IMG/VR virus record: IMGVR_UViG_3300027752_000024
Location: 1 to 54,150 of that record
Direction: 5' to 3' (one strand)
Length of the DNA stretch: 54,150 nucleotides
Origin: a virus
Taxonomy: Duplodnaviria; Caudoviricetes
Under the pieces are notes generated by a model, which saw only the letters and a list, made by a program, of their open reading frames with translations, did not search any database and was not told the origin of the DNA. Below, piece after piece: positions 25,785 through 44,651 of this stretch (positions are counted from its first letter, which is position 1; the number at the start of each line of letters is the position of its first letter). A program made the position numbers and the translations under genes.

Positions 25785-26980
25785 TCGTTTTCCAATATGT
25801 AATCTAATGTTGGGAATATATCACCAAACTTGTATTTGCGATATCTATCGTTAATACTAATAAACTGCTTCATCCGTGTTATGTTCTCTTCAGAATATTT
25901 ATTAGTATTCTGTGTGTAGTTAATGATTCGCGAAACTGCATCGTTGTGTAGTTTGCTGTTTATTATTTTTAAGTTGTCTATTACTTTGTGTCGTATTTCT
26001 TTGGGCCATACACAACTATGAATTTGGTCAGGGTGTTCTAAGAATATAGGTACAAAGTCTATACGCCGTGTTTGTGTGTCTTCTAGCCAACGTATCAGTG
26101 GAGCAACATCAAATACATTCCATGCCTGGTATACAAAGTAAATCTTTAGTTGTACTTTTTCAGGTAGACGCTGTGCTTTTGCAAAGTTTTCTTCTACTTT
26201 TTTCCAATCAGTTGGATAACGTATGTATTGGTTGTGTTCGCCAAATCCGTCAATGCTCATCTGTATTTCACTTGCATCAAAGAAGTCTAGTTTATCGTAA
26301 AACCCTTCTGGCCATGTTGTCATATTAGTGGTCCATGCAACATAGCATTTGTTGTTGCCAGCGGAAACAAGGGCGTCAAGCACGTACTGATTGGCTTGTA
26401 TTAAGGTTGGTTCACCCCCAGTTAGGTAAAGACGCTCTAACGTAGGTGCTACGCAGTCTACGAAGTCTTTAAACTCTTGAGTCTCGTACCATGCCCAATC
26501 GTGTTCCTCTACACTTTTAATCTCGTGTTGCCACTGATCATTTAGCCATTTAGGAACAGTTTCATTTGCAAGGATTTTCTTACGTTCTTTGTAGATATTA
26601 TCACTGCTCACACTCCAGCAACTATTGCATTTTAAGTTACAATGATTGCCCAATCGTAGTTCTAAGTGTGTAGGGTTGCCGTGAGTTACAGATGCATGAT
26701 AGGTTTTGTTGGCCCACTGCCTGCTGCTTTCTAAACCTTTTTCTTCGTGTTCGTAGCAGCGATTACATTCTTTAACTTTGCCACCACCCAGCATCTTTGC
26801 ACGAACATCCAGCATGTATTGCCCGTTCCAAATGTTCCACCAGTCAGTTTTACCTAGTACAGCATCTTTGCCATCTACTTGAATATAGTCTTCACTGTAT
26901 ACATGACAGCATAGTTTACATCTACCATCGGTGTTGGTGTGTACGTTTATAAACGGGTATACGCAATACGAATCACTCAT
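25772..26980 (-). CDS. Radical SAM protein with N-terminal twitch/SPASM-like domain
   Basis: CVYPF..LCC..CNRC, CNLKCNSC, TGGEP, TTN, SIDG. Start moved to MSDSY. Confidence 0.9.
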   Translation of the reverse strand: MSDSYCVYPFINVHTNTDGRCKLCCHVYSEDYIQVDGKDAVLGKTDWWNIWNGQYMLDVRAKMLGGGKVKECNRCYEHEEKGLESSRQWANKTYHASVTHGNPTHLELRLGNHCNLKCNSCWSVSSDNIYKERKKILANETVPKWLNDQWQHEIKSVEEHDWAWYETQEFKDFVDCVAPTLERLYLTGGEPTLIQANQYVLDALVSAGNNKCYVAWTTNMTTWPEGFYDKLDFFDASEIQMSIDGFGEHNQYIRYPTDWKKVEENFAKAQRLPEKVQLKIYFVYQAWNVFDVAPLIRWLEDTQTRRIDFVPIFLEHPDQIHSCVWPKEIRHKVIDNLKIINSKLHNDAVSRIINYTQNTNKYSEENITRMKQFISINDRYRKYKFGDIFPTLDYILENECKI

Positions 26981-29132
26981 TCCATTCTCCATTTCCTTGC
27001 CATGCATATTTAAAGCTAAAGTCTGTATTACGTGTATACAAAAACTCTTGTTCGTGTTCGCGGAACACATCTGGATCGTGAGCATTTGTAGGATCTCTAG
27101 ATGCTTTTTCAGTGCCTTTCCACGCTAACTTACGAGCTCTAATAGCTGCATTACTGTTGTCTCTTGTAAAGTCCATGATACTCCAAACTGGGCTATTACC
27201 GTCTGGACTTACATGTGTAACTCCGTTGTGTTCCCAGTATGTATCATTCCAATCGTTGTATGGATCTTGTTGATAATCCCATTTAAAATCCGCAGTCCAC
27301 ACACCATCATCTGTTATTTCAAATATATAGTCTGCATCCAACGGTGCAGCATTGCGGCCACCCCATTCTTGATATTCCCATTCTTTACGGAACTTTAAAT
27401 GCAACTTATACCCGCCTTTGGTGCGCCATAAAATACGCAAGAATGGCCAAATCTCATTTACTAAACTGTCAGCAAAGTTACTAATGTACGGCTTGATAAT
27501 ATTATAGTTAAAATCATCATAGTCGTACTCAATGTCTAGTTCTTTGTCTGGATTATCAAATGTAACCTCGTAATGAAACTTTGCTAAGTTTGGTCTAGTA
27601 GGTTTAGAACATGCTTTTTCTGTATTCAGCAAATCTGTAAAAATACTAAAGGACTTCATACGAATAAGTTTGTGTACAATACTCATTTTAAAGTCTTTTG
27701 TAATCCAGTGATCGTAATAGTAAAATGGACTTAGGTTAAATTTGTCTAAGTTTTGTCCTACAATAGTATCAACACCAACACTAAATCCTGTACCCTGACT
27801 AATAGCAATAAGTCCTTGATTGCGCACACGATACATAAATGTAAGAGTGTCTTCTAGTTCTTTAGGACCTTCATTGGGATAGCCAACAATCCAGTTGGTC
27901 ATTGCATCAATACCAGCAGCATAGCCATCACGGAAGTTTGCTTCCATTTCTGCCACAGTAACTTTTTTGTCCATTGCATCTAATACAACTTGACTTCCGC
28001 TTTCAATACCGTAGTTGAGTACTTCACAGCCTCCTGCTTTTAAATCCTTGTAATACTCTGCATCCATTCTGCCATCACAACGGCAGTAGCCAGTCCAATG
28101 TATATCCAGTTCTTTTTCTGCAACACCTTTTACAAACCCACGTAGCTCGTTGAGATTGCCATTGACTAAACTGTCAATAAACCAAAACACATTAGTACCA
28201 TGTTCGTAATACATGTGTTCAATCTCATCAAGTGTACTAAGTGCATTACGTTGTCTGTATTTCCAAAAGTGTGTTTCTTCGCAGAACGTACACTTTGCAA
28301 TACAGCCTCTTGATATCTCACACAATGCACCGTTTGGAAACTTGTACTTACTAAAGTCAAAATCACTGTAATCAGGCAACGGTAGTGTACTCAAGTTATA
28401 ACGCTGATTTTCAGGTTGTCTAATAATCTTACTTACAGCATTTTCTGTGTACTCGATGGATTTGTTATTTTCAATGTTTTCTAGTGCAAGCAACAACGGC
28501 TGTTCGCCTTCGCCGTTTACTACATAATCAAATAGGTCGCAGCCTTTGTAAAAACTAGCATGAGTACTCGGTCCTCCAACAATAATAGTCACAGTTGGCA
28601 AACGTTTTTTTAACTCTGCTGCCATATACTTTGTTGGTACTTCGTTGCAGTAGTACAATGTAAATCCAATCACATCAGGATTAAATGCAACAATCTCATC
28701 TAGCTTTTCATCCAGTAATGGTCTTAGATGAGGATGGATATCATCATAGTAGTTGTCTTCTAACCAATGCCAGTCACGTAGACTATCCCATGGATTAAAC
28801 TCTATAGGCCACTGCTCATCGTTGAATCGGCTGTATGCATCCACATTAATGTCAAAACTCTTACATGCATATCCTGCACGTTTTACAGCACTAGCAAGTT
28901 TTGCTGTGTTGTAAGGTGGAAAGTTAGGATCCCACTCTGGTAGTAATCCTAAACATACACGAGTCTTACGATTAACACTGTATTCAATCTCAAGATTGTC
29001 TAGTCCTTTTTGTACTGGTTTGCTATACTTTGCAATAACAGCTAATGTAGCTGTGTGCTTGTCTTCAGCAAGTGTGCCTGTAGGACGTTCCGGTGCTTGT
29101 CTATCTGGATCTGTATTTTCATAAAATCCCAT
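26973..29132 (-). CDS. Cobalamin-binding radical SAM protein (class B methyltransferase-like)
   Basis: N-terminal B12-binding features (PDVIGFT, IIVGGP, GEGE), then SRGCIAKCTFC, GIESGSQVVL..M.K and IVGYPNE. Confidence 0.9.
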   Translation of the reverse strand: MGFYENTDPDRQAPERPTGTLAEDKHTATLAVIAKYSKPVQKGLDNLEIEYSVNRKTRVCLGLLPEWDPNFPPYNTAKLASAVKRAGYACKSFDINVDAYSRFNDEQWPIEFNPWDSLRDWHWLEDNYYDDIHPHLRPLLDEKLDEIVAFNPDVIGFTLYYCNEVPTKYMAAELKKRLPTVTIIVGGPSTHASFYKGCDLFDYVVNGEGEQPLLLALENIENNKSIEYTENAVSKIIRQPENQRYNLSTLPLPDYSDFDFSKYKFPNGALCEISRGCIAKCTFCEETHFWKYRQRNALSTLDEIEHMYYEHGTNVFWFIDSLVNGNLNELRGFVKGVAEKELDIHWTGYCRCDGRMDAEYYKDLKAGGCEVLNYGIESGSQVVLDAMDKKVTVAEMEANFRDGYAAGIDAMTNWIVGYPNEGPKELEDTLTFMYRVRNQGLIAISQGTGFSVGVDTIVGQNLDKFNLSPFYYYDHWITKDFKMSIVHKLIRMKSFSIFTDLLNTEKACSKPTRPNLAKFHYEVTFDNPDKELDIEYDYDDFNYNIIKPYISNFADSLVNEIWPFLRILWRTKGGYKLHLKFRKEWEYQEWGGRNAAPLDADYIFEITDDGVWTADFKWDYQQDPYNDWNDTYWEHNGVTHVSPDGNSPVWSIMDFTRDNSNAAIRARKLAWKGTEKASRDPTNAHDPDVFREHEQEFLYTRNTDFSFKYAWQGNGEWNE

Positions 29133-30340
29133 TACCAGATTCCGTCTAGTTCAGGAAACACATCCAGTAAACTTTCTTGCCGCAATCTATCGATACGCTG
29201 TGTTTTAAACTTAAACATTTTTATTTCATCTGTGCGATCTTTTTCCATAAAGTTTAAAATACTCTCGTAATCGCTAATAACTGATTTAATATTGTCAAAC
29301 TGTTTTAAGTAAGAAATGTGTTCTGCATATCTTTTTGCTACTTGAGATTTAATCCACGGCGGCAATATACTCAATCTCATGTAAGAAGGATCCAATAAAA
29401 TGTTGATGCGAATGTTCTGCGGTTCTAGTAATCCTTCTTCTATCCATTCTTTGTGGAAATCAGGTAGGTTAAGCACGTTGTACACGCTTACAGTAGGCGT
29501 TAGCTCAAAATATACGTGTGGACACTGCTCAATCATATCTCTACGGTTTTGCACCACCTGTGACCATACCATGTTCTTACGCAAGTATTCACCGCGAGCA
29601 TGATTTGCATCCAAGCTACCGGCCACTCTTACGTGTTCAAACTTGTTCCAGTATTCAAATGCTGTTTTGTTTTTGTAATACATTTGTGTAAAGTTAGTGG
29701 TGTAATCCATTTTAACATCGTGCTTGCCCATGGCAATCCACTTGTCAAGTATACGATAGTGCTCTTGTGTAATCAACGGTTCGCCACCTGCCCAGTATAC
29801 TCTTTCAACACTGTCCAGCAATGGCTCAAGTTCGTCCATAAAGTTTAACATATCGTCACGCACTTTTAGTATCTTGCCATGCGGCAGTTCACCGTATATT
29901 GCTTTATGATCTTCAAACCAGCTACTACTAAACTGTGGCCCGCAACTACGACACTTTAAGTTACAAAGGTTACTAAAGCGTATGTCCATGTATGCCATGT
30001 TTACATCACCAGCACTGCCGTCGTCGCTTGTGCTTTCAACTTTGTCCCAATGATGCATATAGTTTTCTATACTGCTGTTACGCAGTGTACTCATACCGTT
30101 GTCTTCTAGTTCATAGCAACGTCTACATTCTTTGCTGGGCGTGTCTTCCAACATGTTAAGACGCAACTGCCGCATTTCTGGGCCGTTCCAAATGTCTTGC
30201 AATGTTTGATCTTGTGTATTTCCTACAGGATGATCTGGATCACTCATGCAGCAAGGATATGTAGTTCCAGCAGGCCACAAATGCATGTGCGTCCACGGCA
30301 TCATGCAAAAATGCTTGCTTTGTTTTAAATCGTTAGACAT
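29132..30340 (-). CDS. Radical SAM protein with N-terminal twitch/SPASM-like domain
   Basis: CMMPW..PCC..CRRC, CNLKCRSC, AGGEP, YTTN. Confidence 0.9.
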   Translation of the reverse strand: MSNDLKQSKHFCMMPWTHMHLWPAGTTYPCCMSDPDHPVGNTQDQTLQDIWNGPEMRQLRLNMLEDTPSKECRRCYELEDNGMSTLRNSSIENYMHHWDKVESTSDDGSAGDVNMAYMDIRFSNLCNLKCRSCGPQFSSSWFEDHKAIYGELPHGKILKVRDDMLNFMDELEPLLDSVERVYWAGGEPLITQEHYRILDKWIAMGKHDVKMDYTTNFTQMYYKNKTAFEYWNKFEHVRVAGSLDANHARGEYLRKNMVWSQVVQNRRDMIEQCPHVYFELTPTVSVYNVLNLPDFHKEWIEEGLLEPQNIRINILLDPSYMRLSILPPWIKSQVAKRYAEHISYLKQFDNIKSVISDYESILNFMEKDRTDEIKMFKFKTQRIDRLRQESLLDVFPELDGIW

Positions 30341-31544
30341 ATAAATCCTTTAGCTCTGGAAACACGTTGAGAAAGTTTTCTCCACGTTTCAGATCCATTT
30401 TCTGCATCTCCATCCTAAAAGCTGGAATCAAGTTGCTGTCATCACTATTGTACATGAAGTTTATAATATTGTCAATACCTTCATGTAGAAACTGTTTGCG
30501 CTGTGGATACATGTCTATTGCATCAATGTCCTGTTTTAACAACACCAAATTTTCTTTTGCAATGTCTTTTAAGTGTGCAGGTAATATTGTTATACTCAGC
30601 CAGTCTGGCCCGACTAATAGGTTGCTGAGATTGATATCGTAGTCGGTGGGTATGTTGTGTTCAAACAAGAAGTTAATAATCTTACGCAAGTCTAATATGT
30701 TTAATACACTGATAGTAGGATTAGGTTGTATGATTACACCTTTGTCATAACTGTGTTCAAAGTTATCACGTATCCAGCACAAGTTATCAAATACTGTACT
30801 CCACTTTTGTCCATTGCGTGTGTACTCGGCTTTGGCACCAATTTGGTCACAGCTTACACAGAAGAATATCTTATCAAAATGCTGCCAATACTTTTGTATG
30901 TGCTTGCCTTTTAAACTTAATCTACTGGCGTTACTGTTGTATGTTAATCTCGGTTTGAGTCCACGCTCTATAAGCATATCTAGCAGTCTGTAATGCTGCT
31001 CCATAAACAGGCTTTCGCCGCCAGTAAAATAAACTTCTTCAATAGTGGGCAACATTTCTTCAATCTCAGCCCACATTGCTGGATGATTGATTTCAACAAC
31101 TTCAGGCTTGCCAACAGTGTCTTCTGCCCACTTGCTGCTGAAATGAGGCCCACAACTACGACACTTCATGTTGCATAGATTACTAAACCTTACATCAAAG
31201 TATGCAAGATTCATTTGTTCTACACTACCATCATCGGCTGTTGTTTCTACTATGTCGTAATGATGGTCGTATTCGGTGTTGAACTTGTGTCTGTAACTGA
31301 TAATACCCTGGTCGTCATAGTTGGTACACTTTTTACATCCTTCGCTTGGTTCGTTGTTTAACATACGCATACGCAAGTCACGCATCTTTTCACTGTTCCA
31401 AGCACCTTTGAACCCAGCTTCGTTGATGTTACCAGTGGGCATATCCCAGTGATATATACAACAAGGATACGCATCGCCGTTTTGCCATACGCTCATGTGT
31501 GTCCATGGAGCCATACAAAAATGTTTTTTAAATTCTCTACTCAA
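30333..31544 (-). CDS. Radical SAM protein with N-terminal twitch/SPASM-like domain
   Basis: CMAPW..PCC..CKKC, CNMKCRSC, TGGES, YNSN. Confidence 0.9.
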   Translation of the reverse strand: MSREFKKHFCMAPWTHMSVWQNGDAYPCCIYHWDMPTGNINEAGFKGAWNSEKMRDLRMRMLNNEPSEGCKKCTNYDDQGIISYRHKFNTEYDHHYDIVETTADDGSVEQMNLAYFDVRFSNLCNMKCRSCGPHFSSKWAEDTVGKPEVVEINHPAMWAEIEEMLPTIEEVYFTGGESLFMEQHYRLLDMLIERGLKPRLTYNSNASRLSLKGKHIQKYWQHFDKIFFCVSCDQIGAKAEYTRNGQKWSTVFDNLCWIRDNFEHSYDKGVIIQPNPTISVLNILDLRKIINFLFEHNIPTDYDINLSNLLVGPDWLSITILPAHLKDIAKENLVLLKQDIDAIDMYPQRKQFLHEGIDNIINFMYNSDDSNLIPAFRMEMQKMDLKRGENFLNVFPELKDLYV

Positions 31545-32721
31545 TGTTGACTACTGCTTCTATAAGATTGTCTGTTATGTCATTCCAACTAATCTTACGT
31601 GAAAGGAACAACTGTTGGTTATGTAATAATTTATCATAATATTTTCGTCTGACGGTCCGTTTTAATACATCAATGTCATAGTTTTTAATATGTTTCCACA
31701 TTGCTTGTGCTTCAACAAAATTTGTAACTTTGTTAACACCGAACAAGTCTTCAAACGTATGATACCCACGTTCTCGTAATAGTTCGTGCTGCTGCGGATT
31801 ACCTATAATAAAGAATGGATGTAGATTCATAATAGCTTTATAAGTTTTTTCTGTTATAAAGTTTTTATGAGTGTCGCTTTCTGTAACTACACTTAATATA
31901 CTATCTTCGTAATATGGTTTAATGCTGTCGCCATAGTTGATAACAAACTGCGTGTGCAATGTATCTAACTTTCTTGGACGCATTTCTCTAAGAAGTGCTA
32001 ACTTATAATCTTTATGCAACTCTTCAGGAATACGATCTATTACAGAATGTCTACGAGCAACATCTTCAAACTCACGGCGACCCACAGCAGGCAAGTTAAA
32101 GCTAACATGTCCTTCGTCTAATACATCACTTCTTAACAAACTATACATCAACCATATACGATGTGGTTTGATATTTCTATTCAAACACAGAAACTTTTTA
32201 GTTGCTGCTCTAACAGTAGGTTTACTAGTAAATGAGATATCAGGAAGTACTTGGTGGTGTAGTCTAGTAATACTTTCCCAAAAGTTAACACTAACATACT
32301 TTACACCATGTATTATCCTATTGTGAGCATCTCTGTCGCTGCACATTACAACAACTTTGTGTAATGGTATGTTTTTACTTCTAAGCTCTTGTTCTAGTTT
32401 GTCCGGTGACATTCTACATTCCAGCACACTTGACAAACATAGATATACACTAGGATCGTTGTTTAATAAATCAATACTGGCTTGTGAAATATGTATGTCT
32501 GTGTTTCCAGGCATGTGAATATGATCAAAAATAAACTTAGGGACGTTTGCTGGCAATAGACTTAGTTGGTTTATATGGAAGAAGTTTCGGAATGAGAAGT
32601 CGTCCCAGTGTCCAAGAAGGTAACTTAGCTGGATAGATCCGTTGTTATGTCCAAAAGTCAGTGTAACATCACCGTGTGGTGATGGAAACACATTATCTAA
32701 TAAAAAATAGCATTTATACAT
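31537..32721 (-). CDS. Hypothetical protein, possibly a GT-B fold glycosyltransferase (GT10-like C-terminus)
   Basis: KKFLCLNR..KPHR and VVTES..FITEKTYKAI..HPFFIIG, which resembles the fucosyltransferase-type ITEK motif. Confidence 0.55.
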   Translation of the reverse strand: MYKCYFLLDNVFPSPHGDVTLTFGHNNGSIQLSYLLGHWDDFSFRNFFHINQLSLLPANVPKFIFDHIHMPGNTDIHISQASIDLLNNDPSVYLCLSSVLECRMSPDKLEQELRSKNIPLHKVVVMCSDRDAHNRIIHGVKYVSVNFWESITRLHHQVLPDISFTSKPTVRAATKKFLCLNRNIKPHRIWLMYSLLRSDVLDEGHVSFNLPAVGRREFEDVARRHSVIDRIPEELHKDYKLALLREMRPRKLDTLHTQFVINYGDSIKPYYEDSILSVVTESDTHKNFITEKTYKAIMNLHPFFIIGNPQQHELLRERGYHTFEDLFGVNKVTNFVEAQAMWKHIKNYDIDVLKRTVRRKYYDKLLHNQQLFLSRKISWNDITDNLIEAVVNIE

Positions 32722-32727
32722 TCTTAT

Positions 32728-32756
32728 ATAATACTACAGATTTTATTTTTTAGCAA
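32728..32756 (-). promoter_or_regulatory. Sigma70-like promoter for the radical SAM operon, probably giving leaderless mRNA
   Basis: TTGCTA-N17-TATTAT. The ATG lies only 6 nt downstream of the -10 element, with no SD. Confidence 0.5.
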
Positions 32757-33330
32757 GAAGTTTTTCGCGGTGTGGATCTAAATACTTTTTAACTAGATCA
32801 AAGAATGTTACATTCTCGCCTGGAATATCAACTACAGTATCAGCAGGAACGCCTGCTGCTTTGCCAAATGCTTCTGGATTGTCATCTAACACTGCTTGAC
32901 GGAGATCAGTAGCACTTGCAAGTCTTGGGGGCTTTACCCATTCTATGTCTTTGAAGTTGTAACTACCGTGCGGGCCTTCTGCACCATTATACTGTTGTAT
33001 AGTTTTAGGAACCCATGCTTCGTCTGTGTAAAGTTTTAATGTAGCATCAGGATGCTTTGCATATAGCTCACTAGCAAGTGTTAGCCAACTTTGGCTGAAT
33101 ACAATATGTCCTTTTACTTCAGGCCAAATAGTTTCCATTGCAACAACTTTTGCTTGCGCTGGCAATGGATCTTTAGGACCAACTGTGCTTTGATTAGTAC
33201 CTACATACCAGTGTGTTTCTCGGCTAGCCATTTCCCACGCATTTTTGTGACCTTTGTGTGGAGGATTAAATCTTCCAAATATAAGTCCTACACTTTCGCC
33301 TGGTGCTTCAAATAGTTGTCTTAGTCTCAT
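32743..33330 (-). CDS. HIGH-motif nucleotidyltransferase (cytidyltransferase/NMNAT-like)
   Basis: FGRFNPPHKGH, KDPLP and SATDLR motifs. Start moved to MRLRQLFE (ATGA coupling). Confidence 0.8.
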   Translation of the reverse strand: MRLRQLFEAPGESVGLIFGRFNPPHKGHKNAWEMASRETHWYVGTNQSTVGPKDPLPAQAKVVAMETIWPEVKGHIVFSQSWLTLASELYAKHPDATLKLYTDEAWVPKTIQQYNGAEGPHGSYNFKDIEWVKPPRLASATDLRQAVLDDNPEAFGKAAGVPADTVVDIPGENVTFFDLVKKYLDPHREKLLAKK

Positions 33331-34454
33331 GCCGGTGTCCACCTTTTTCTTGGAACAAGTTTTACGTTGCCAAACTTTTTATTAGGGTCTGCATAACGTA
33401 CCCGGCCTTCACCGTTGGTATCCCAAATGTCACCTTGTTCACCTTCTACTTGATCAATAACTTCGTCTTTCATACGCTGAATCATTTTAACTAGTTCAAA
33501 TATTGCACTTGTTGCACCTTTGTACTGTAAATCTATCTCTGCAATCTTTGCTTGTTTTCCTACACTAACTTTACTATTTTGTAGCCAAGCAGAAAAGTCT
33601 TTTGCACTCAAACTATCCAAACGTTTTGCTTTTGCAGTTTGGTTAACATATGTGTAAATAATATTCTTTAAATCAGCAAGTCCAGGAACGCCTGCTAAAA
33701 ATCCATCAATGGCTGCTTTATTCTGTGATACAAAGTTTTCCACAGCATCAATCGCCCCTGTATTAACAGCGACCGGTTTACTGTTATAAACTGGACCTAA
33801 TACAACAATACTAGGATCATTATCAAACATACTAAAGTCTTGCATAGGCTGTTGACTACTATCTGGCATACCGAACTGTGGGAAGAAAGCGTGTCCGACT
33901 ATCATAATAGTAGCACGGTCTATACGCTTGCCTAGATCACTGTTTGCTTTAACATGGTAGCATGTTTGTGAGTTAGGATTTGGACAGAATGTATATACTC
34001 CATCTTTTTGTTCAGGCGGATCTAAAAATAATCCATCTGCATAAACAAACCCTACAAAGTCTCTCGGAGTTGCTCTATCAAAATAATCATACATACTTGC
34101 AAACTTTTGCGCAAACTGGTCTCTTGCTGTTTTTTCTTCTGGTGTCTTAGGATTGCCACTTTTGTTAGAAATAAAGTCCGCCACTTCTTCTTGACTGGTA
34201 GCCGCTACACCCTTACTCCATGCGTTGTGTCCTGCAAGTATAAGCGGTCCACCTTTGCGCTCACGGCCCCAATATATTTGAGGATTGCCATCCCACTTCA
34301 TACGTATACTTTGGCTTCCGCTATCTGTAGCAATGTCTTTGAGATGTTCTAATGCTTCAATAGTACCGTCACTACCGTAAAAAAATACCAAGTCTTCTAA
34401 ATGGTTAAATGCGCGGCCAAGTTGTTTGGTTTCGAGTAGTTCTTGGTATCTCAT
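33327..34454 (-). CDS. Phage protein with KxDG motif (DUF6267-like; possibly ligase/capping-type nucleotidyltransferase fold)
   Basis: NHLEDL, MKWDGNPQIYWG, EGRV and KLVPR resemble motifs I, IV and V of covalent nucleotidyltransferases. Confidence 0.65.
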   Translation of the reverse strand: MRYQELLETKQLGRAFNHLEDLVFFYGSDGTIEALEHLKDIATDSGSQSIRMKWDGNPQIYWGRERKGGPLILAGHNAWSKGVAATSQEEVADFISNKSGNPKTPEEKTARDQFAQKFASMYDYFDRATPRDFVGFVYADGLFLDPPEQKDGVYTFCPNPNSQTCYHVKANSDLGKRIDRATIMIVGHAFFPQFGMPDSSQQPMQDFSMFDNDPSIVVLGPVYNSKPVAVNTGAIDAVENFVSQNKAAIDGFLAGVPGLADLKNIIYTYVNQTAKAKRLDSLSAKDFSAWLQNSKVSVGKQAKIAEIDLQYKGATSAIFELVKMIQRMKDEVIDQVEGEQGDIWDTNGEGRVRYADPNKKFGNVKLVPRKRWTPA

Positions 34455-35185
34455 CTAGTCATTGCCCTCATTAGTTCAACTAATCTATTGTGATTTTTAT
34501 CAGCTAGTGATTCGGCTACTTTGGTCCAGTTAGGATCTTGCTCTGCACGTTGGAGTGCTTGCTCAGGATTAGGAACTTTCTTTAATATAGTTTCTACACT
34601 TTCTAAGTCACTAGCACTGGCGCTGCTGCTGAGTATAAGTTGTGCAACTTTGTTAACATCGTTTGTAAGAAGTTGTGCTTTTTTACCATTTTCGTCCTTG
34701 GCAAATAATCCTTGGAACGCACTCCAAAACATATTCTTATCTTTGGCAAGCATATACAATAGTAACTGTTTGTGTTTGCCTTTGTAAGGACTACCTGTTG
34801 GAATGTTGTGTGTATGAAACTGTGCTACACTGCTTGCACCCGGCACAACCATAATATCAACTTGATGGCTGTTGTTGCCGGCTTTGGCTCTTACGTGTAC
34901 GTTAACACCTTTTTGTGCTGTTTCAAAGCCTTTTTGTGCAATGTAGTCATTGAGCATTCTACGTGCATCTTTTGGAGTACGCACATCAAAATAATCCATT
35001 ACTGCTGCTTCGTCAACAATAACATCTAAGTCGCCACTTGTTTTACCTGGAGTTGGAGTTGCTGCACTACCTACAGGAATAGCTTCAATGCCTGTTCCTT
35101 CTAGACTGCTGTTAACTGTTTTAAGAATCTCTTCGATTGCACTGTGATCAAAATCACTGGTGCCCTGAAACACATTACCACCCAT
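34451..35185 (-). CDS. Pol-beta superfamily nucleotidyltransferase-like protein
   Basis: MGGNVF start, VGS..SGDLDVIVD (GS...DxD) and QVDIM (third Asp). Confidence 0.65.
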   Translation of the reverse strand: MGGNVFQGTSDFDHSAIEEILKTVNSSLEGTGIEAIPVGSAATPTPGKTSGDLDVIVDEAAVMDYFDVRTPKDARRMLNDYIAQKGFETAQKGVNVHVRAKAGNNSHQVDIMVVPGASSVAQFHTHNIPTGSPYKGKHKQLLLYMLAKDKNMFWSAFQGLFAKDENGKKAQLLTNDVNKVAQLILSSSASASDLESVETILKKVPNPEQALQRAEQDPNWTKVAESLADKNHNRLVELMRAMTR

Positions 35186-35189
35186 AGTA

Positions 35190-35669
35190 TTAACTCCTTG
35201 ATAATGTATTTAGTATCTTTTGCTTAACATCATCGTAAGACTCGTCTTTGATACTTAGCTTAAACAGTATACGATCTTCTGTGCTGTTGTCAACCGAATG
35301 TTTGATACTGGTGTTTAATAATGCTGTGGTATAGTAGTATTCATTCTTGCCAAAGTTTACAGGTGCAGGGTTGCCACTTAACAAGAAGTTGATGCTGCAA
35401 GTTGTATCTTGATCTATGTGAGGAAGTAGAGTTGTATTAGCATGTAATATATAAAACTTTGATACTGCATTGATATTAAAATGTCTTGCTAACGTATCTG
35501 CATATGCTAACTCAATATCGGTTACTATACGCCAGTTGTTCATAGCATACTTGCCAAAGCGTTTGTCGGTGTACGGCATGGAATGTTGTTTGTGTTCGTT
35601 CCAATAGTCTAACAAACATTGTTTGTCAAAATCAAAATTAAAAACTAATATGTCATTGTTGTTTATCAC
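35190..35669 (-). CDS. 2OG-Fe(II)/cupin-like oxygenase
   Basis: LLPHIDQD (HxD), SINF, KHSVDN and R motifs. Confidence 0.55.
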   Translation of the reverse strand: MINNNDILVFNFDFDKQCLLDYWNEHKQHSMPYTDKRFGKYAMNNWRIVTDIELAYADTLARHFNINAVSKFYILHANTTLLPHIDQDTTCSINFLLSGNPAPVNFGKNEYYYTTALLNTSIKHSVDNSTEDRILFKLSIKDESYDDVKQKILNTLSRS

Positions 35670-35896
35670 GACTTTTTGATTGTCCTATGCATACCTTCTG
35701 GCGAATGAATAGCATTGATAAGATCGTTAAACATATCTGTTGATATTTCAAGTATACTGTGTATTTCAAGTTCGTTGTCGTACTGACGTATATAAACAAC
35801 ATCATCAAACGCATCAATAATTAAATCGTCGTATAGACCAGTTTCGTCCATTACAGTAATAGTTGTTAAGTCGTGATCAAACTCATTTGTAAACAT
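35666..35896 (-). CDS. Hypothetical acidic protein
   Basis: 76-aa ORF overlapping both neighbours. Confidence 0.55.
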   Translation of the reverse strand: MFTNEFDHDLTTITVMDETGLYDDLIIDAFDDVVYIRQYDNELEIHSILEISTDMFNDLINAIHSPEGMHRTIKKS

Positions 35897-36881
35897 TTGT
35901 ATCGTTATCCTTATATTTTGTAATCATTACTTCATCTATAGTATGGCATTCTTGTTGGTTGCATACCGTAAACTCATCTTTAAAAAGTTTCAAGTTAGGA
36001 TTAAAAATATTTCCTATACTTCCTGTATTGTTACATATGCCATACTGGACATTTCCATTAGCTTGTATTACTATCTTTTTATTTGTAACAGAACATTTCC
36101 ATCCTTTAAATCTATTTTGATTATTTCTAACAATAGTCGAAGCGTTTGACTCAATGCCGTCTACAGTTACATTTAAATATTCAGGAGTACTATGATTGTT
36201 GTCTTTGACTTGTTTAAGTTCTGTAGTTGAAAAGTATCCTAAACTACCATCATCAATAGTTTGCAAATAATGTTCTAAATTTCTACTAGATGCAAAAGTA
36301 GGATTTACTGTATTGGTAGAAGCATCATATAATGGAAAAACAGGAAGTCTAACTACAGGTATACTGTACTCTTTTAACGCAATCTCTAACGCATCAACGC
36401 GATCAAACAGTTTGTTTACCAACATTGCACGTATTTCTACACTGCCGCCGTGTTCTACAATAGTTGATGCTAATTCTACAACATGGGCAATATCAGCACT
36501 TTCTGGATGAAAACTAATCTCCATGTTAATATTCTTAAAACTATTTTTGCATTTCATGTACTGGCTAATAGGCAAACTGCCGTTAGTAAAAACTCCTACT
36601 TTAAAGTCGTTATCGGACATAAAGTTGAACCATTGATGCACTTTGGGAATTAAAAACGGTTCGCCACCTGTAACATACACAAGTACTGTTTTATCTGCAG
36701 GTATGTTATTTCGTATATTTGATGCAGCAGCGATTAAGTCATCTACAATAACAATATTTTTCTTAATAATAGAACGATGATTGCTAGGACTACAATAACT
36801 ACAATCATAGTTACACATATCTAAAGGGCGCCAATGAACAATATAATCTGCATACCAATCGATCTTTTTTATAATATTCAT
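35883..36881 (-). CDS. Radical SAM protein with C-terminal Cys-rich domain
   Basis: CNYDCSYC, TGGEP, FTNG, SFHPE. C-terminal GWKC..C..CNQQEC. Same architecture as 24792..25784. Confidence 0.88.
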   Translation of the reverse strand: MNIIKKIDWYADYIVHWRPLDMCNYDCSYCSPSNHRSIIKKNIVIVDDLIAAASNIRNNIPADKTVLVYVTGGEPFLIPKVHQWFNFMSDNDFKVGVFTNGSLPISQYMKCKNSFKNINMEISFHPESADIAHVVELASTIVEHGGSVEIRAMLVNKLFDRVDALEIALKEYSIPVVRLPVFPLYDASTNTVNPTFASSRNLEHYLQTIDDGSLGYFSTTELKQVKDNNHSTPEYLNVTVDGIESNASTIVRNNQNRFKGWKCSVTNKKIVIQANGNVQYGICNNTGSIGNIFNPNLKLFKDEFTVCNQQECHTIDEVMITKYKDNDTNVYK

Positions 36882-36903
36882 AAAAATACTTATCAACTTG
36901 ATT

Positions 36904-39106: not shown

Positions 39107-39196
39107 TGGCAGACAGGGTGGGATTCGAACCCACGGAACGCTTGCACGTTCGCCGGATTAGTAATCCGGAGCTTTCGGCCACTCAGCCACCTGTCC
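39107..39196 (-). tRNA. tRNA-Ser with ACT anticodon
   Basis: Ser-type body (GGA start, long variable arm, G73). Anticodon arm CCGGA-TT-ACT-AA-TCCGG. Confidence 0.88.
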
Positions 39197-39698: not shown

Positions 39699-40697
39699 AT
39701 GATTTATACAGAATGGGATCCTTTAAAGGAAATAATAGTTGGCAAGGTTTATGATCCTGCTGATATTGCACACATAGAAGACGTAGAGTTTCGCAATGGA
39801 CTACAACGAATATTTGAAGAAAGTGAAGAAGACTTTTGTGCTTTAACAGAAATGCTGGAAAGCTACGATGTTGTAGTACATAGGCCAAACTGTGAATACA
39901 AAGGTGACTTTCGATATCCTGCGGTATGTCCAAGAGACATGCACATTGTATATGGTGATCAAGTAATAAACACCATGGGCGGAGATCCTAATCGTTATTA
40001 CGAAAGTGATCACTTTGCAGATATTATGCTGGGATTAGATAGAGATTATTATGCAATGCCAAGGCCGACGTTGCCAAACTACTATGCTCCATATCAGTTC
40101 AATGAAGGTAAAATACTATACCATGCTGCCAACATACTAAAGTGTGGCGATGCACTATTACACACAAAGCCGTACAACAACAACACGTATACTCCAACTA
40201 GGCAGTTTGGCAGAGGAACTGATACAGGGTTAGATTGGTGCAAGAAGAACATAGATGCACGTTGGATTGAACTGCACGAAAGCGGACATGCCGATGGTAA
40301 GATTGCACTTATCAAACCCGGATTGCTGATGTGTTGGTTAGAAGATATGATTCCTCCCGAACTACAAAGTTGGGATAGAGTAGTTGTACCCAAGCAAGAT
40401 GTACCTGAACAGTTTTGGCAAAGTAAGAAACAACCTCTTATGCAAAAAAATGTAAATCAATGGCTGGGCAGCTGGATTGGTCACGTAGACGAAACTATTT
40501 TTGATGTTAATGTTGTTAGTGTATCACCAGAGTTGGTTATTACAAATGGATACGATGCAGGTGTAGCAGCACAACTTAAAAAGCATGGTGTGGAAATGGT
40601 TCCATTTAACTTTAGACACAAGTTCTTTTGGGATGGCGGATTGCACTGTGTAACATTAGATTTAACAAGAGAAGGCAAGTGTGAAACATATGTATAA
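39699..40697 (+). CDS. Amidinotransferase (glycine / inosamine-phosphate amidinotransferase family)
   Basis: EWDPLKEIIVG, CPRD, HADG and terminal GGLHCVTLDL.R with catalytic Cys. Confidence 0.88.
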   Translation: MIYTEWDPLKEIIVGKVYDPADIAHIEDVEFRNGLQRIFEESEEDFCALTEMLESYDVVVHRPNCEYKGDFRYPAVCPRDMHIVYGDQVINTMGGDPNRYYESDHFADIMLGLDRDYYAMPRPTLPNYYAPYQFNEGKILYHAANILKCGDALLHTKPYNNNTYTPTRQFGRGTDTGLDWCKKNIDARWIELHESGHADGKIALIKPGLLMCWLEDMIPPELQSWDRVVVPKQDVPEQFWQSKKQPLMQKNVNQWLGSWIGHVDETIFDVNVVSVSPELVITNGYDAGVAAQLKKHGVEMVPFNFRHKFFWDGGLHCVTLDLTREGKCETYV

Positions 40698-41406
40698 GAT
40701 AGCAATGCACATACCTACCGAACTGTTGGTGGTAGATGATTTTTTATCACAGGATGATTGGGATAAAGTACACAATCAAGTGCAGTGTGATGAATGGACA
40801 CAAAGCCAAGCAGACGACAAGTATTGGCACATAACAGACGGTGCCAACTACAAAGCCAGCAAACGCTTTATAAAAGATGCACCGTTCAATGACAACTACG
40901 ATCCGTGGGTAGACGCAATAAAGAAGTTTGCAGACACTTGCGAACAAGCACAAGAGTTTGTAAGTGGATATACAGACATTGCAATGCGATGCCACGGATA
41001 TCCAGTTGGTAGTAAGAATCCTTGGCACACCGACATGGGCGGAGTTACTTACAGTTATTATCTACACAAACAATGGCAAATAAACTGGGATAGTACGCTA
41101 CTGGTATTACCTCGTGGCAGTGTAGAATACAAACAGATAATGCGTAAGCTACCTGGTACTAAACAACACGACACTTACAAAACAGTAGGCACACTCGAAA
41201 TGTTTGAGCAAGCAGAAAAACAAAAGCACTTGATTGAATATGGTTTGGGCACATTTGTATCACCCAAGCCCAACAGGCTGGTGTTGATTGGTAAGAACGT
41301 TGTACACGGTATAAACAGAGTAGACTCGGATGCTGGTGAAAACATACGATTAACACTTACAGGATTCTTTAACTTTTTTAATACTCAGGTAGTAAAAAAT
41401 GTTTAG
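40681..41406 (+). CDS. 2OG-Fe(II) oxygenase (prolyl hydroxylase-like)
   Basis: WHTD (HxD), YYL..W..NW, PKPNRLV, HG and R.TL.GF motifs. Confidence 0.8.
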   Translation: MKHMYKIAMHIPTELLVVDDFLSQDDWDKVHNQVQCDEWTQSQADDKYWHITDGANYKASKRFIKDAPFNDNYDPWVDAIKKFADTCEQAQEFVSGYTDIAMRCHGYPVGSKNPWHTDMGGVTYSYYLHKQWQINWDSTLLVLPRGSVEYKQIMRKLPGTKQHDTYKTVGTLEMFEQAEKQKHLIEYGLGTFVSPKPNRLVLIGKNVVHGINRVDSDAGENIRLTLTGFFNFFNTQVVKNV

Positions 41407-44065: not shown

Positions 44066-44651
44066 TTACTTTCTCCAATATATCTGCCCAAGTTACATTG
44101 GGCTTTCCTCTTAAACTTAAAACAACTCTACGGTTATCATTGCCTGTGTTGTTGCTTCTGTGAAATACATCTGTTTTGATCAGTTGTATGCTATTTAACA
44201 CTATTGACTCACTCACAATATAGTTGTTGTCAAAGTATTCAGGCATCATAGCACTGCCGCCTGGTGCAAACTGCTCTGTACCAAAGTCGTTGTTGTGATC
44301 TTCAAACCATTCGTTTATACCCAAGTCGCAATTTGCAATAGGAATATTAATAGCCCATGGTCGAAGTTCTTTTGATTGTCCTAAACAATCTTTATGTATC
44401 TGTAACTTACGGTGTGGATTGGTTACAAATAGTCTAGCAGTTTGTAGCTCAATATCAAGAGCATCCAGCAACGATTGTACCGGCCATTTAATGTCTTTGC
44501 CAGTGATTAAAAAACCTGTAACCACTGGCAATATTCTATTGTCGTCTTTGTAAAGTGTTCTGCTATCGAGCTTGTGTCCAAACTCATTCCAATAGATATC
44601 ATACAACTCTTGTGTTGGTAAATGAAAATCTACTGGACAGCTAAACTTCAT
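44028..44651 (-). CDS. 2OG-Fe(II)/cupin-like oxygenase
   Basis: IHKD (HxD), AINIPI and FHRSNN..RVVLSLR motifs. Confidence 0.55.

What the first reader, a model, noticed from the sequence alone, without database searches (positions are those of the whole stretch)
32743..35212. Late operon of three unrelated nucleotidyltransferase folds, two with capsid-targeting-like N-termini
Seen: three ATGA-coupled genes downstream of a TAAATA motif and an AAGGAG RBS. They encode a Pol-beta-type protein (GS..DLD..D), a KxDG protein with ligase-like EG and KL motifs, and a HIGH-type protein (RFNPPHKGH). The last two start MRYQELLE and MRLRQLFE. Known: T4 internal proteins start with a short capsid-targeting peptide (MKTYQEFIAE) cleaved after Glu by the prohead protease. 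Inference: this is a packaged and injected nucleotide-transfer module. Possible roles are tRNA/RNA end repair (the tRNA array is about 1.7 kb away), NAD or signal-nucleotide synthesis to counter defence, or nucleotidylation of host proteins.
Basis: partly seen in the sequence, partly recalled or inferred. Interest (0 to 1): 0.8.

Follow-up and report, generated by a model that had tools for sequence, protein, structure and literature searches.

The report
Phage polymerase-ligase-adenylyltransferase trio with capsid-targeting leaders
A marine T4-like giant phage carries three coupled genes for a small repair-type DNA polymerase, a previously unrecognised ligase-like enzyme and an NAD-synthesis-like enzyme, two of them tagged with a short leader resembling the signal phage T4 uses to load proteins into its head.

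Summary
Three genes overlapping by ATGA lie on the minus strand: A 35185-34451, B 34454-33327, C 33330-32743. They are real and conserved. A folds as a minimal family-X DNA polymerase (palm plus thumb, like ASFV PolX), not as a CCA-adding, CD-NTase or MenT enzyme. B (Pfam DUF6267) is a divergent ligase/capping-superfamily enzyme with invariant KxDG, EG and K. C is a HIGH-motif, NMNAT-like nucleotidylyltransferase. Relatives fuse these domains as A-B, B-C, A-B-C and B-A, so the three probably serve one pathway. I read that pathway as gap filling and nick sealing, with C supplying the adenylate donor; this is inferred.

The leader (MRYQELLE on B, MRLRQLFE on C) is disordered and portable. It ends in the L/I-x-E motif cut by the T4 prohead protease, and 2 of 5 related records encode that protease. 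It heads at least 10 protein families clustered around the trio. In cyanophage S-CREM2, published virion proteomics lists the leader-bearing C relative but not the leaderless DUF6267 protein.

Packaging is plausible but unproven for this phage. The three complete marine T4-like genomes I checked have DUF6267 and no recognisable classical ligase domain.

The parts
35266..35293 (-). Sigma-70-like promoter candidate, TTGACA-16-TATACT (11 of 12), inside the 3' end of the upstream ORF
   Evidence: The total of such sites in the region is not above shuffles (12 against 11.1). The TTGACA is kept in close relatives, but there it lies in coding sequence.
35207..35212 (-). TAAATA motif (context ACTAAATAC), 27 nt before the ATG of A; candidate T4-type late promoter
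   Evidence: (C/G)ATAAATA sits at -24 to -28 of three tail/baseplate-region genes in the window. GATAAATAC stands before A in relatives with different upstream genes.
35194..35199 (-). AAGGAG ribosome-binding site, 8 nt before the ATG of A
34451..35185 (-). Gene A, 244 aa: minimal family-X (Pol beta-like) polymerase, palm plus thumb, with no leader
   Evidence: AF2 pLDDT 91.9. Foldseek finds Pol lambda at E 1e-8. VIA-align gives Pol beta Z 11.8 and ASFV PolX Z 10.5. D52, D54 and D110 are invariant.
34431..34454 (-). Leader of B, MRYQELLE, ending in L-L-E
   Evidence: Residues 1-10 have pLDDT below 50. The leader is on 45 of 50 distinct N-termini of B relatives.
33327..34454 (-). Gene B, 375 aa: DUF6267, a ligase/capping-superfamily nucleotidyltransferase with a helical insertion at residues 232-336
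   Evidence: PF19782 at E 4.4e-16. H18, K53, D55, G56, G63, K329, G350 and K365 are invariant. AF2 pLDDT 94.8. The top 19 VIA-align matches are all ligases, Z 5.3-7.2.
33307..33330 (-). Leader of C, MRLRQLFE, ending in L-F-E
   Evidence: On 40 of 44 distinct N-termini of C relatives. A near-identical DNA copy heads B in related records.
32743..33330 (-). Gene C, 195 aa: HIGH-motif (FGRFNPPHKGH) nucleotidylyltransferase with an SSATxLR second motif; NMNAT/NadD-like
   Evidence: phrog_3041 at 4e-13. TIGR00125 at 7.8e-6, below its cut-off. Invariant columns.

Best explanation
**Proposal.** The three genes form one unit that is probably transcribed late and translationally coupled. It encodes a nucleic-acid break-repair kit.
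- A is a minimal PolX-type polymerase that fills short gaps or extends 3' ends.
- B (DUF6267) is a lysine-nucleotidylating ligase that seals the nick.
- C is an NMNAT-like adenylyltransferase that supplies or regenerates the ligase's adenylate donor, most simply NAD+ from NMN and ATP.
- B and C carry a short disordered N-terminal leader ending in L/I-x-E. Like the T4 capsid-targeting sequence, it would bring them into the prohead, where the gp21-type protease removes it. The enzymes would then enter the cell with the DNA.

**Shown here.** The folds and catalytic motifs, the gene coupling, the domain fusions, the portability and clustering of the leader, and the protease gene in relatives.

**Inferred.** The substrates (DNA or RNA), the nucleotide donor, late timing, packaging and cleavage.
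For: **Folds and motifs.**
- A: the top 8 VIA-align matches are all family-X polymerases, Z 10.2-11.8 with 161-175 residues aligned. TUTases, CD-NTases, MenT and CCA enzymes mostly align over only about 100 palm residues, with Z at most 9.1. Foldseek finds Pol lambda at E 1e-8. Among viral models, giant-virus PolX proteins match.
- B: K53xD55G56, E349-G350 and K365 are invariant or nearly so in 64 diverse sequences. The top 19 structure matches are all RNA or DNA ligases.
- C: the HIGH motif and SSATxLR are invariant.

**One pathway.**
- Of 150 representatives holding a B domain, 27 are A-B, 6 B-C, 5 A-B-C, 4 B-A and 1 A-A-B.
- One fusion adds a HAD phosphatase-like module.
- The genes are adjacent in viral contigs.

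**Precedent.** A giant-virus PolX fused to an NAD+-dependent ligase performs base excision repair (PMC5537341; abstract and discussion read).

**Repair context.** A UvdE UV-endonuclease gene is in the window and in relative G001.

**Leader.**
- It is disordered in the model.
- It is present on 45 of 50 B and 40 of 44 C distinct N-termini, and on 0 of 28 for A.
- It heads 185 of 916 plus-strand ORFs in the 80 loci against 0 of 457 on the other strand. These fall into 11 sequence clusters; B and C merged into one cluster.
- 6 of 7 pattern hits in the 167-kb record G001 lie within 9 kb.
- T4 ipII and ipIII start MKTYQEFIAEA.
- gp21 cuts after L/I-x-E, and the first 10 residues of IPIII suffice for targeting (PMC9026906, passages).
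- PF03420 protease is found in 2 of 5 related records, next to portal, scaffold-like and capsid genes.

**Virion proteomics in S-CREM2.** The leader-bearing C relative gp154 is listed. The leaderless DUF6267 gp87 is not among the 52 proteins.
Against: **Packaging.**
- There is no proteomic or biochemical data for this phage or its close relatives.
- A, the polymerase, has no leader in the window. Cyanophage S-CAM9's B has none either. Packaging is therefore not intrinsic to the enzymes.
- The window holds no head genes (14% complete), and 3 of 5 related records show no protease.
- The authors of PMC10665884 caution that virion detection may be carry-over of abundant proteins.

**Fold and family assignments.**
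- B's structural matches are modest (Z at most 7.2; Foldseek E at least 0.058).
- B has no sequence link to T4 Rnl2 (hhalign probability 0.1) or to any solved structure.
- C scores below the Pfam and NCBIfam cut-offs, and its NMNAT assignment rests on two motifs.

**Promoter.**
- The window's own motif is ACTAAATA, not NATAAATA.
- TATAAATA is not enriched (3 against 5.5 expected).
- A sigma-70-like site also precedes the operon.

**Other.** The phage already has a gp30-type ATP-dependent DNA ligase.
Confidence: 0.5

Rival explanations
1. The enzymes and the repair or replication role are the same, but they are not packaged. The shared leader is some other N-terminal signal, such as a docking peptide for a clamp or a common hub, a degron for the phage-encoded ClpP, or a translation-initiation module spread by recombination.
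For: - A has no leader.
- The cyanophage and S-CREM2 B proteins have none.
- [LI]xE also stands before the B core inside fusion proteins: 29 of 41 junctions against 16% of background windows. That could mean it belongs to B's function.
- The window encodes a true ClpP.
- There is no virion evidence for this lineage.
Against: - The leader heads at least 10 unrelated protein families.
- It is disordered.
- It resembles the T4 CTS in sequence and in its terminal L/I-x-E.
- In S-CREM2 the leader-bearing protein is the one listed in virions.
Confidence: 0.3
2. This is an RNA (tRNA) repair module against anticodon nucleases. B would be an RNA ligase, A would restore 3' ends, and the unit would act on the phage or host tRNA pool.
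For: - B's nearest structures are RNA ligases: Naegleria Rnl Z 7.2, REL1 6.9, T4 Rnl2 6.7, Trl1 6.4.
- The Atlas gives PF09414 RNA_ligase as a lead at score 0.75.
- A tRNA array lies 1.7 kb away, and a tRNA directly precedes A in locus L016.
Against: - A matches PolX over palm and thumb, while CCA-adding enzymes align over the palm only (Z 6.8-7.7).
- The unit has no kinase, cyclic phosphodiesterase or RtcB-type healing enzyme.
- RNA and DNA ligases differ by less than 2 Z units, so fold does not decide the substrate.
- The B-C pair occurs in phages without an adjacent tRNA array, for example S-CAM9.
Confidence: 0.12
3. C is the key player. It would be an injected NMNAT that rebuilds NAD+ against NAD-depleting defences or to tune host metabolism. 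A and B would be merely neighbouring genes.
For: - C-family proteins annotated NMNAT or cytidylyltransferase are reported in virion proteomes of several cyanophages, and the authors propose NAD regulation (PMC9602691 and PMC10665884, sections read).
- C's weak best matches are NadR and NadD.
Against: - B-C and A-B-C fusions (11 of 150 representatives) and ATGA coupling tie C to the ligase-like enzyme.
- No Nampt or other NAD-pathway partner was seen among the window genes I annotated.
- C fails every NMNAT equivalog cut-off.
Confidence: 0.1

Closest known systems
ASFV Pol X with the ASFV ligase, and the Phaeocystis globosa virus PolX-NAD+-ligase fusion (viral base excision repair)
   Same: A small family-X polymerase is paired or fused with a nick-sealing ligase in a large DNA virus. 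ASFV PolX also lacks the 8-kDa and DNA-binding subdomains (5hr9 aligns 161 of 176 residues, Z 10.5). The PgV enzyme uses NAD+ (PMC5537341).
   Different: - The ligase here is DUF6267, not a LigA or classical ATP-ligase family member.
- A third, HIGH-motif enzyme is coupled or fused.
- The host is a bacteriophage.
- B and C carry a capsid-targeting-like leader.
T4 internal proteins IPI/IPII/IPIII and Alt, with their capsid-targeting sequence and gp21 processing
   Same: - A 8-10 residue N-terminal leader is shared by unrelated proteins in a variable gene cluster.
- It ends in L/I-x-E.
- The sequences resemble each other: T4 MKTYQEFIAE against MRYQELLE and MRLRQLFE here, and MKTFKELFEN in relatives.
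- A gp21-type protease is encoded in relatives.
   Different: - The cargo here is enzymes of nucleotide transfer, not small restriction inhibitors or an ADP-ribosyltransferase.
- The leader is shorter, and arginine is common at position 2.
- No cleavage or packaging has been shown.
Virion-associated NMNAT-like 'cytidylyltransferases' of T4-like cyanophages (S-CREM2 ORF154, S-SCSM1 ORF91, S-CBWM1)
   Same: They belong to the same HIGH-motif family (HMM E 2.3e-9 to S-CREM2 gp154). They were detected in CsCl-purified virions (PMC10665884 Table 3; PMC9602691). S-CREM2 gp154 starts MKNFSSFLTEA.
   Different: - Those papers treat the protein alone, as an NAD regulator.
- Neither paper, in the sections and passages I read, mentions a leader or a link to DUF6267 or a PolX-like gene. 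A full-text search for DUF6267 found 0 papers. One for 'capsid targeting' plus 'cyanophage' found only the T4 review.
- Supplementary tables were not open to me.
Bacterial LigD (polymerase, ligase and phosphoesterase) of non-homologous end joining
   Same: It is a multi-domain or operon-linked polymerase-plus-ligase end-repair machine. An end-healing phosphatase-like module is sometimes attached here too (the HAD-A-B fusion).
   Different: LigD's polymerase is an archaeo-eukaryotic primase fold, and its ligase is a classical ATP ligase with an OB domain. No Ku was seen here.
Nick-sealing RNA ligases: T4 Rnl2, Naegleria Rnl, trypanosome REL1
   Same: They are the best structural neighbours of B (Z 6.7-7.2). 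They share the KxDG lysine motif and the lack of an OB domain.
   Different: There is no detectable sequence relation. B has about 100 residues of helical insertion between the nucleotide-binding core and its EG and K motifs. The substrate is unknown.

Membership tests
Family X DNA polymerase (Pol beta-like nucleotidyltransferase superfamily) | hG[GS] loop, then DxD, plus a third catalytic Asp | tested here: met
   G39-S40 and SGD52LD54VIVD. D110, D52 and D54 are invariant in 25 sequences down to 29% identity.
Family X DNA polymerase (Pol beta-like nucleotidyltransferase superfamily) | Palm plus thumb (nucleotide-selection) subdomains arranged as in Pol beta/lambda | tested here: met
   Foldseek finds Pol lambda at E 1.1e-8 over about 205 columns. 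VIA-align gives Pol beta Z 11.8 (175 aligned), ASFV PolX Z 10.5, and TdT, Pol mu and Thermus PolX Z 9.1-10.4.
Family X DNA polymerase (Pol beta-like nucleotidyltransferase superfamily) | 8-kDa dRP-lyase domain and helix-hairpin-helix DNA-binding subdomain | tested here: not met
   The 244-aa protein starts at the palm (model range 3-200 aligns to Pol beta 104-338). The same lack is known for ASFV PolX.
Family X DNA polymerase (Pol beta-like nucleotidyltransferase superfamily) | Match to a curated sequence model of the family | tested here: not met
   The only hit is PF01909 NTP_transf_2 at E 0.037, 14.9 bits against a cut-off of 21. There is no PHROG, NCBIfam or PDB sequence hit.
Family X DNA polymerase (Pol beta-like nucleotidyltransferase superfamily) | Template-directed gap-filling synthesis | not testable with these tools
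   This needs an enzyme assay.
Covalent nucleotidyltransferases (ATP/NAD+ ligases, RNA ligases, capping enzymes) | Motif I KxDG with the nucleophilic lysine | tested here: met
   K53, D55 and G56 are invariant, and W54 nearly so, in 64 sequences down to 25% identity.
Covalent nucleotidyltransferases (ATP/NAD+ ligases, RNA ligases, capping enzymes) | Motifs III, IIIa, IV (EG) and V (K..K) in order | tested here: inconclusive
   E349-G350 and K365 (GGEGYV...KLVPR) are conserved at the C-terminal end, and D140 and Y166 are nearly invariant. I assigned them to motifs by position only. No residue-level structural alignment was available.
Covalent nucleotidyltransferases (ATP/NAD+ ligases, RNA ligases, capping enzymes) | Nucleotidyltransferase-domain fold | tested here: met
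   The top 19 of 48,161 chains by VIA-align are all ligases, Z 5.3-7.2 with 146-198 residues aligned. Foldseek ranks ligases first, but only at E 0.058 or worse. The support is modest in score but consistent.
Covalent nucleotidyltransferases (ATP/NAD+ ligases, RNA ligases, capping enzymes) | OB-fold or other known nick-recognition domain | tested here: inconclusive
   Residues 232-336 are predicted as five helices. No row reports an OB domain. That part was not folded and searched alone.
Covalent nucleotidyltransferases (ATP/NAD+ ligases, RNA ligases, capping enzymes) | Sequence relation to a characterised member | tested here: not met
   hhalign of the B profile against T4 Rnl2 gives probability 0.1. 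PDB searches with the sequence and with the profile found nothing.
HIGH-signature nucleotidylyltransferases (PF01467; NMNAT/NadD/PPAT/cytidylyltransferases) | (H/T)xGH motif after the first strand | tested here: met
   FGRFNPPH25-K-G27-H28 is invariant in 25 sequences.
HIGH-signature nucleotidylyltransferases (PF01467; NMNAT/NadD/PPAT/cytidylyltransferases) | Second signature of ISxTxxR type | tested here: met
   R136-x-S-S-A140-T141-x-L-R144 is invariant or nearly so. That this matches the NMNAT/NadD/PPAT motif is my recollection and comes from no call.
HIGH-signature nucleotidylyltransferases (PF01467; NMNAT/NadD/PPAT/cytidylyltransferases) | Curated family score | tested here: inconclusive
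   The window protein scores 19.8 bits against the PF01467 cut-off of 21, and 26 against 27.7 for TIGR00125. The relative S-CAM9 gp097 passes at 27.6 bits. phrog_3041 matches at 4e-13.
NMN/NaMN adenylyltransferase (equivalog level) | Score above the NCBIfam equivalog cut-offs | tested here: not met
   The scores are 12-21 bits against cut-offs of 112-341. The PDB profile hits to NadR and NadD cover only the HIGH motif, at E 0.25-1.4.
T4-type capsid-targeted (CTS) internal proteins | N-terminal propeptide of about 10 residues ending in L/I-x-E, not part of the fold | tested here: met
   The leaders are MRYQELLE|T and MRLRQLFE|A. Residues 1-10 of B have pLDDT below 50. 42 of 50 B and 40 of 44 C distinct N-termini have the leader plus [LIF]xE.
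T4-type capsid-targeted (CTS) internal proteins | The same leader on unrelated proteins of a variable cluster | tested here: met
   Leader-bearing ORFs fall into 11 sequence clusters within 5 kb of B (B and C merged in one). They also cluster in G001 and G002.
T4-type capsid-targeted (CTS) internal proteins | gp21-type prohead protease in the genome | tested here: inconclusive
   The window is a 14% fragment without head genes. PF03420 is present in 2 of 5 related records, themselves fragments.
T4-type capsid-targeted (CTS) internal proteins | Presence in virions in processed form | not testable with these tools
   Only a distant C relative is reported in virions (PMC10665884, 3 peptides). No N-terminal mapping was seen.

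The most novel reading that the evidence does not exclude
Marine T4-like phages load a complete PolX-ligase-adenylyltransferase repair kit into the capsid through a T4-type targeting leader. They inject it with the DNA to mend sunlight-damaged or nicked genomes at the moment of entry, before any phage gene is expressed. The NMNAT-like enzyme would regenerate the ligase's NAD+ on the spot. DUF6267 would then also be the 'missing' DNA ligase of cyanomyoviruses, pelagiphages and methylophages, which have no recognisable classical ligase.
Probability: 0.2. Interest if true: 0.85.

Novelty: new variant of a known kind. Interest (0 to 1): 0.68.

Why it matters
- **A widespread unknown gets a testable function.** DUF6267 matches 465 cultured phage records, of which 365 are named Synechococcus phages, and also pelagiphage HTVC008M and methylophage Melnitz. 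No paper in the searched library mentions it. Reading it as a ligase-superfamily enzyme gives a concrete, assayable function to a near-core gene of ocean myoviruses.
- **It may be the only ligase in some of these phages.** The three complete genomes I checked have no PF01068 and no PF01653 domain but do have DUF6267.
- **The fusions define a new repair architecture.** PolX, ligase and a HIGH-motif nucleotidylyltransferase are linked in single proteins.
- **The leader offers a way to predict virion cargo.** It extends the T4 capsid-targeting idea to uncultured marine giant phages. It also explains why NMNAT-like proteins keep turning up in cyanophage virion proteomes.

Tried and rejected
**Searches that found nothing.**
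- DNA similarity of the trio to cultured phages: no match.
- Sequence and profile searches of A, B and C against solved structures: nothing for A and B, and only weak HIGH-motif hits for C.
- Search for longer, named fusion proteins: none scored.

**Tests without a verdict.**
- Complex prediction of A with B: no verdict. It says nothing either way.
- hhalign of the B profile against T4 Rnl2: no relation.

**Ideas rejected.**
- The strict T4 late promoter TATAAATA is neither near the trio nor enriched.
- A as a CCA-adding enzyme, CD-NTase or MenT: these enzymes align over the palm only.
- S-CAM9 gp099, the gene upstream of B there, as a homologue of A: rejected at HMM E 0.09.
- The PHROG label 'DNA endonuclease V' for 40681-41406: Pfam instead gives weak 2OG-Fe(II) oxygenase hits.
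- The 'head maturation protease' PHROG hit at 44648-45265: it is a true ClpP, not a prohead protease.

Full report
**1. What is there**

The window is a 54,150-base virus record that CheckV rates 14% complete, so the genome is probably very large. It is T4-like. It holds topoisomerase II subunits, a gp30-type ATP-dependent DNA ligase, baseplate and tail-fibre genes, several radical-SAM genes and 11 tRNA genes.

Three ORFs lie on the minus strand:
- A: 35185..34451, 244 aa.
- B: 34454..33327, 375 aa.
- C: 33330..32743, 195 aa.

Each overlaps the next by ATGA. AAGGAG stands 8 nt before the ATG of A, and TAAATA stands 27 nt before it.

**2. The genes are real and linked**

- B has relatives in 313 of 323 candidate stretches of viral contigs. 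It matches 1,203 proteins in the 90% clusters and 428 representatives of the 50% clusters.
- Among the 80 best loci, 68 of the 74 with room downstream hold C, 52 of them within 60 nt.
- 44 of the 74 loci with room upstream hold A.
- 37 of the 68 loci with room on both sides hold the trio.
- Profile searches with my own A, B and C models over the 150 listed representatives give 107 B alone, 27 A-B, 6 B-C, 5 A-B-C, 4 B-A and 1 A-A-B.
- Pfam independently sees PF01467 behind DUF6267 in two long proteins, and a HAD-clan domain in front of A-B in one.

Such fusions are the classical sign that separate proteins act in one pathway or complex. In cultured cyanophage S-CAM9 and methylophage Melnitz only the B-C pair is present. 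The gene upstream of B there is not A.

**3. The three enzymes**

*A.*
- It has no curated family hit beyond a sub-threshold PF01909.
- Its model is confident (pLDDT 91.9).
- Foldseek finds human Pol lambda at E 1e-8 over about 205 columns and 20% identity.
- In the independent VIA-align search the first eight matches are all family-X polymerases: Pol beta palm-thumb Z 11.8, Leishmania Pol beta, ASFV PolX Z 10.5 (161 of 176 residues), Pol lambda, TdT and Thermus PolX.
- Terminal uridylyltransferases, CD-NTases, MenT and CCA-adding enzymes mostly align over only the roughly 100-residue palm.
- Among viral models the nearest named ones are giant-virus PolX proteins and the entomopoxvirus AP-endonuclease-PolX fusion. 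The closest phage models are all 'uncharacterized'.
- The GS loop and the three carboxylates (D52, D54, D110) are invariant.
- A is therefore a minimal PolX-like enzyme without the 8-kDa and helix-hairpin-helix parts.

*B.*
- It is Pfam DUF6267 (E 4.4e-16).
- In 64 sequences down to 25% identity, H18, K53, D55, G56, G63, K329, G350 and K365 are invariant, and E349 is nearly so. That is KxDG near the start and GGEGYV...KLVPR at the end.
- The model is very confident (pLDDT 94.8) except for residues 1-10.
- Foldseek gives no significant match, but ligases lead its list.
- VIA-align puts 19 ligases in the first 19 places, RNA ligases first: Naegleria Rnl Z 7.2, REL1 6.9, T4 Rnl2 6.7, Trl1 6.4. 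DNA ligases follow, and capping enzymes come lower.
- These Z-scores are in the range the tool warns can be a common arrangement. The call rests on the combination with the invariant motifs.
- No sequence link to T4 Rnl2 exists.
- B is best described as a new, divergent clade of the ligase/capping superfamily with a helical insertion at 232-336.

*C.*
- It has FGRFNPPHKGH and an invariant SSATxLR.
- It matches phage 'cytidyltransferase' PHROGs at 4e-13.
- It falls just below the Pfam and TIGR00125 cut-offs and far below the NMNAT equivalog cut-offs.
- Its only structure-database similarities are NadR and NadD at the HIGH motif.
- NMNAT-like is therefore a reasoned guess, not a membership.

**4. 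The leader**

*Distribution.*
- B starts MRYQELLE and C starts MRLRQLFE.
- Among relatives, 45 of 50 distinct B N-termini and 40 of 44 distinct C N-termini carry M-[RK]-x(1-3)-[EDQN]-[LFIMV]. Of these, 42 and 40 are followed by [LIF]-x-E within 14 residues. Most exceptions are start-codon calls.
- None of 28 A N-termini has it.

*Portability.*
- The leader is not part of B's fold.
- It is absent from B of S-CAM9 and S-CREM2.
- It is exchangeable: in G001 and G002, B carries a near-identical DNA copy of C's leader.
- In the 167-kb record G001, 6 of 7 pattern hits lie in 9 kb around the trio. A further leader protein lies near the head genes.
- In the 80 loci, 185 of 916 plus-strand ORFs have the leader against 0 of 457 on the other strand. 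They fall into 11 sequence clusters. The largest cluster merged B and C, and the plus-strand count includes B and C by construction.
- New leader-bearing ORFs are inserted between A, B and C in some loci.
- One leader protein is HAD-phosphatase-like and resembles the module fused to A-B in a long protein.

*Comparison with T4.*
- T4 ipII and ipIII begin MKTYQEFIAEA.
- From the passages I read in PMC9026906: the first ten residues of IPIII suffice for head targeting, and gp21 cuts after L/I-x-E.
- A gp21-type protease (PF03420) is encoded in 2 of 5 related records, between portal and scaffold-like/major-capsid genes.
- [LI]xE also precedes the B core in 83 of 104 representatives, including 29 of 41 where B is internal to a fusion. 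The background is 409 of 2,527 windows. This fits polyprotein processing. It could equally mean that the tripeptide belongs to B.

**5. Evidence from cultured phages**

- PMC10665884 (sections 18 and 19 read) lists the 'cytidylyltransferase' ORF154 of S-CREM2 among 52 virion proteins, with 3 peptides. It states that such proteins are frequently detected in cyanophage virions, and warns of possible carry-over.
- PMC9602691 (passages read) reports an NMNAT in S-SCSM1 virions and cites S-CBWM1.
- S-CREM2 gp154 is a relative of C (HMM E 2.3e-9) and begins MKNFSSFLTEA.
- S-CREM2's DUF6267 protein gp87 begins MNKATKPLTHIEH, without a leader. It is not in that table.
- This is one case on each side, but it runs in the direction the targeting hypothesis predicts.
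They may hold more.

**6. Timing**

- The strict T4 late consensus is absent and not enriched.
- However, (C/G)ATAAATA stands 24-28 nt before three tail/baseplate-region genes of the window, the same distance as the trio's ACTAAATA.
- Relatives with unrelated upstream genes, or a tRNA, have GATAAATAC before A.
- A good sigma-70-like site (11 of 12) lies 80 nt upstream.
- Late expression is plausible, possibly alongside earlier expression.

**7. Mechanism**

The best-supported reading is gap filling by A and nick sealing by B.

- The precedents are ASFV PolX with its ligase, and the PgV PolX-NAD+-ligase fusion, which was shown to complete base excision repair (PMC5537341).
- A UvdE endonuclease gene in the window and in G001 would create the nicks that such a pair completes.
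- C's fusion to B argues that it serves the ligase. The simplest chemistry is NMN + ATP -> NAD+, which would make an NAD+-using ligase run on ATP.
- Neither the donor nor the substrate is established. RNA ligases are B's nearest folds, so RNA or ribonucleotide-ended nicks remain possible.
- Packaging would put the enzymes at the incoming DNA before transcription starts. A lacks the leader in this window. Whether A binds B could not be judged (see 'tried and rejected').

**8. A wider point**

- DUF6267 matches 465 cultured phage records, of which 365 are named Synechococcus phages, and also HTVC008M and Melnitz.
- The complete genomes of S-CAM9, Melnitz and S-CREM2 have DUF6267 but no PF01068 and no PF01653.
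- Synechococcus phages are not among the ten commonest names for gp30-type ligase matches.
- DUF6267 may therefore be the only ligase of these phages.
- The window's lineage has both DUF6267 and a gp30-type ligase (G001).

**9. Verdict**

The finding combines known kinds in a new way: viral PolX-ligase repair with T4-type capsid targeting. It also gives the first functional reading of a very common phage gene family.

Noticed in passing
window 23474-31544 and 35883-36896 (minus strand): This is an unusual run of radical-SAM genes: six ORFs with radical-SAM PHROG or Pfam hits. One has a B12-binding domain (26973-29132) and one has an N-terminal SPASM domain (30333-31544). They flank the trio. 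The 403-aa one and the unknown 394-aa ORF (31537-32721) are conserved next to C only in the closer relatives.
   Followed up: partly
window 12204-13250 (minus strand): This is a UV-damage endonuclease UvdE (PF03851, E 8.5e-38). A 58%-identical copy is in related record G001.
   Followed up: partly
window 44648-45265 (minus strand): This is a true ClpP protease subunit (NF001368, 264 bits, above its cut-off), not a prohead protease, despite the PHROG label 'head maturation protease'.
   Followed up: partly
S-CAM9 NC_031922, Melnitz MZ577097, S-CREM2 OR473000 (whole records): These three complete marine T4-like genomes have DUF6267 but neither an ATP-dependent (PF01068) nor an NAD-dependent (PF01653) ligase domain. 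DUF6267 may be their only ligase.
   Followed up: partly
L074, L076, L050, L055, L057 (C-terminal ends of long C homologues): Long forms of C (up to 558 aa) carry lysine-rich variable tails. Several end in a conserved motif of the type DAAGVGIITKQN.T.DVNK.T.RKNLKAF. I found no family for it.
   Followed up: no
G001 89939-90661; L035 6880-7668; several B homologues (L058-L075): A small Cys-containing module (WSxKYKxSINCxxPKGFSQxAHC) follows the leader. It occurs either as its own protein with DUF6321 (E 6e-9) or fused in front of B.
   Followed up: partly
L101 (S-CAM9) 9453-9632 and 9864-10208: Two small ORFs a few genes downstream of the B-C pair start MKTFKQFQDLIE and MKTFRQFVNDITE. These are very close to the T4 capsid-targeting sequence.
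   Followed up: no
window 943-1647, 3109-3408, 3408-10523 (minus strand): Three adjacent ORFs, one of 2,371 aa, share an N-terminal motif of the type MA.QD.(N/D)(V/I)G...NDGTGD..R..F. The first matches baseplate-wedge/tail-fibre-connector PHROGs.
   Followed up: no
window 39107-39196 (minus strand): ARAGORN calls a tRNA-Ser with anticodon ACT, an unusual unmodified A34 anticodon, within the 11-tRNA array.
   Followed up: no
A homologues in L046-L081 and others: Many A homologues start MILLEGGNVF (also MILNE and MILVE), that is, with an L-x-E in front of the invariant GGNVF. The window's A starts directly with MGGNVF.
   Followed up: no
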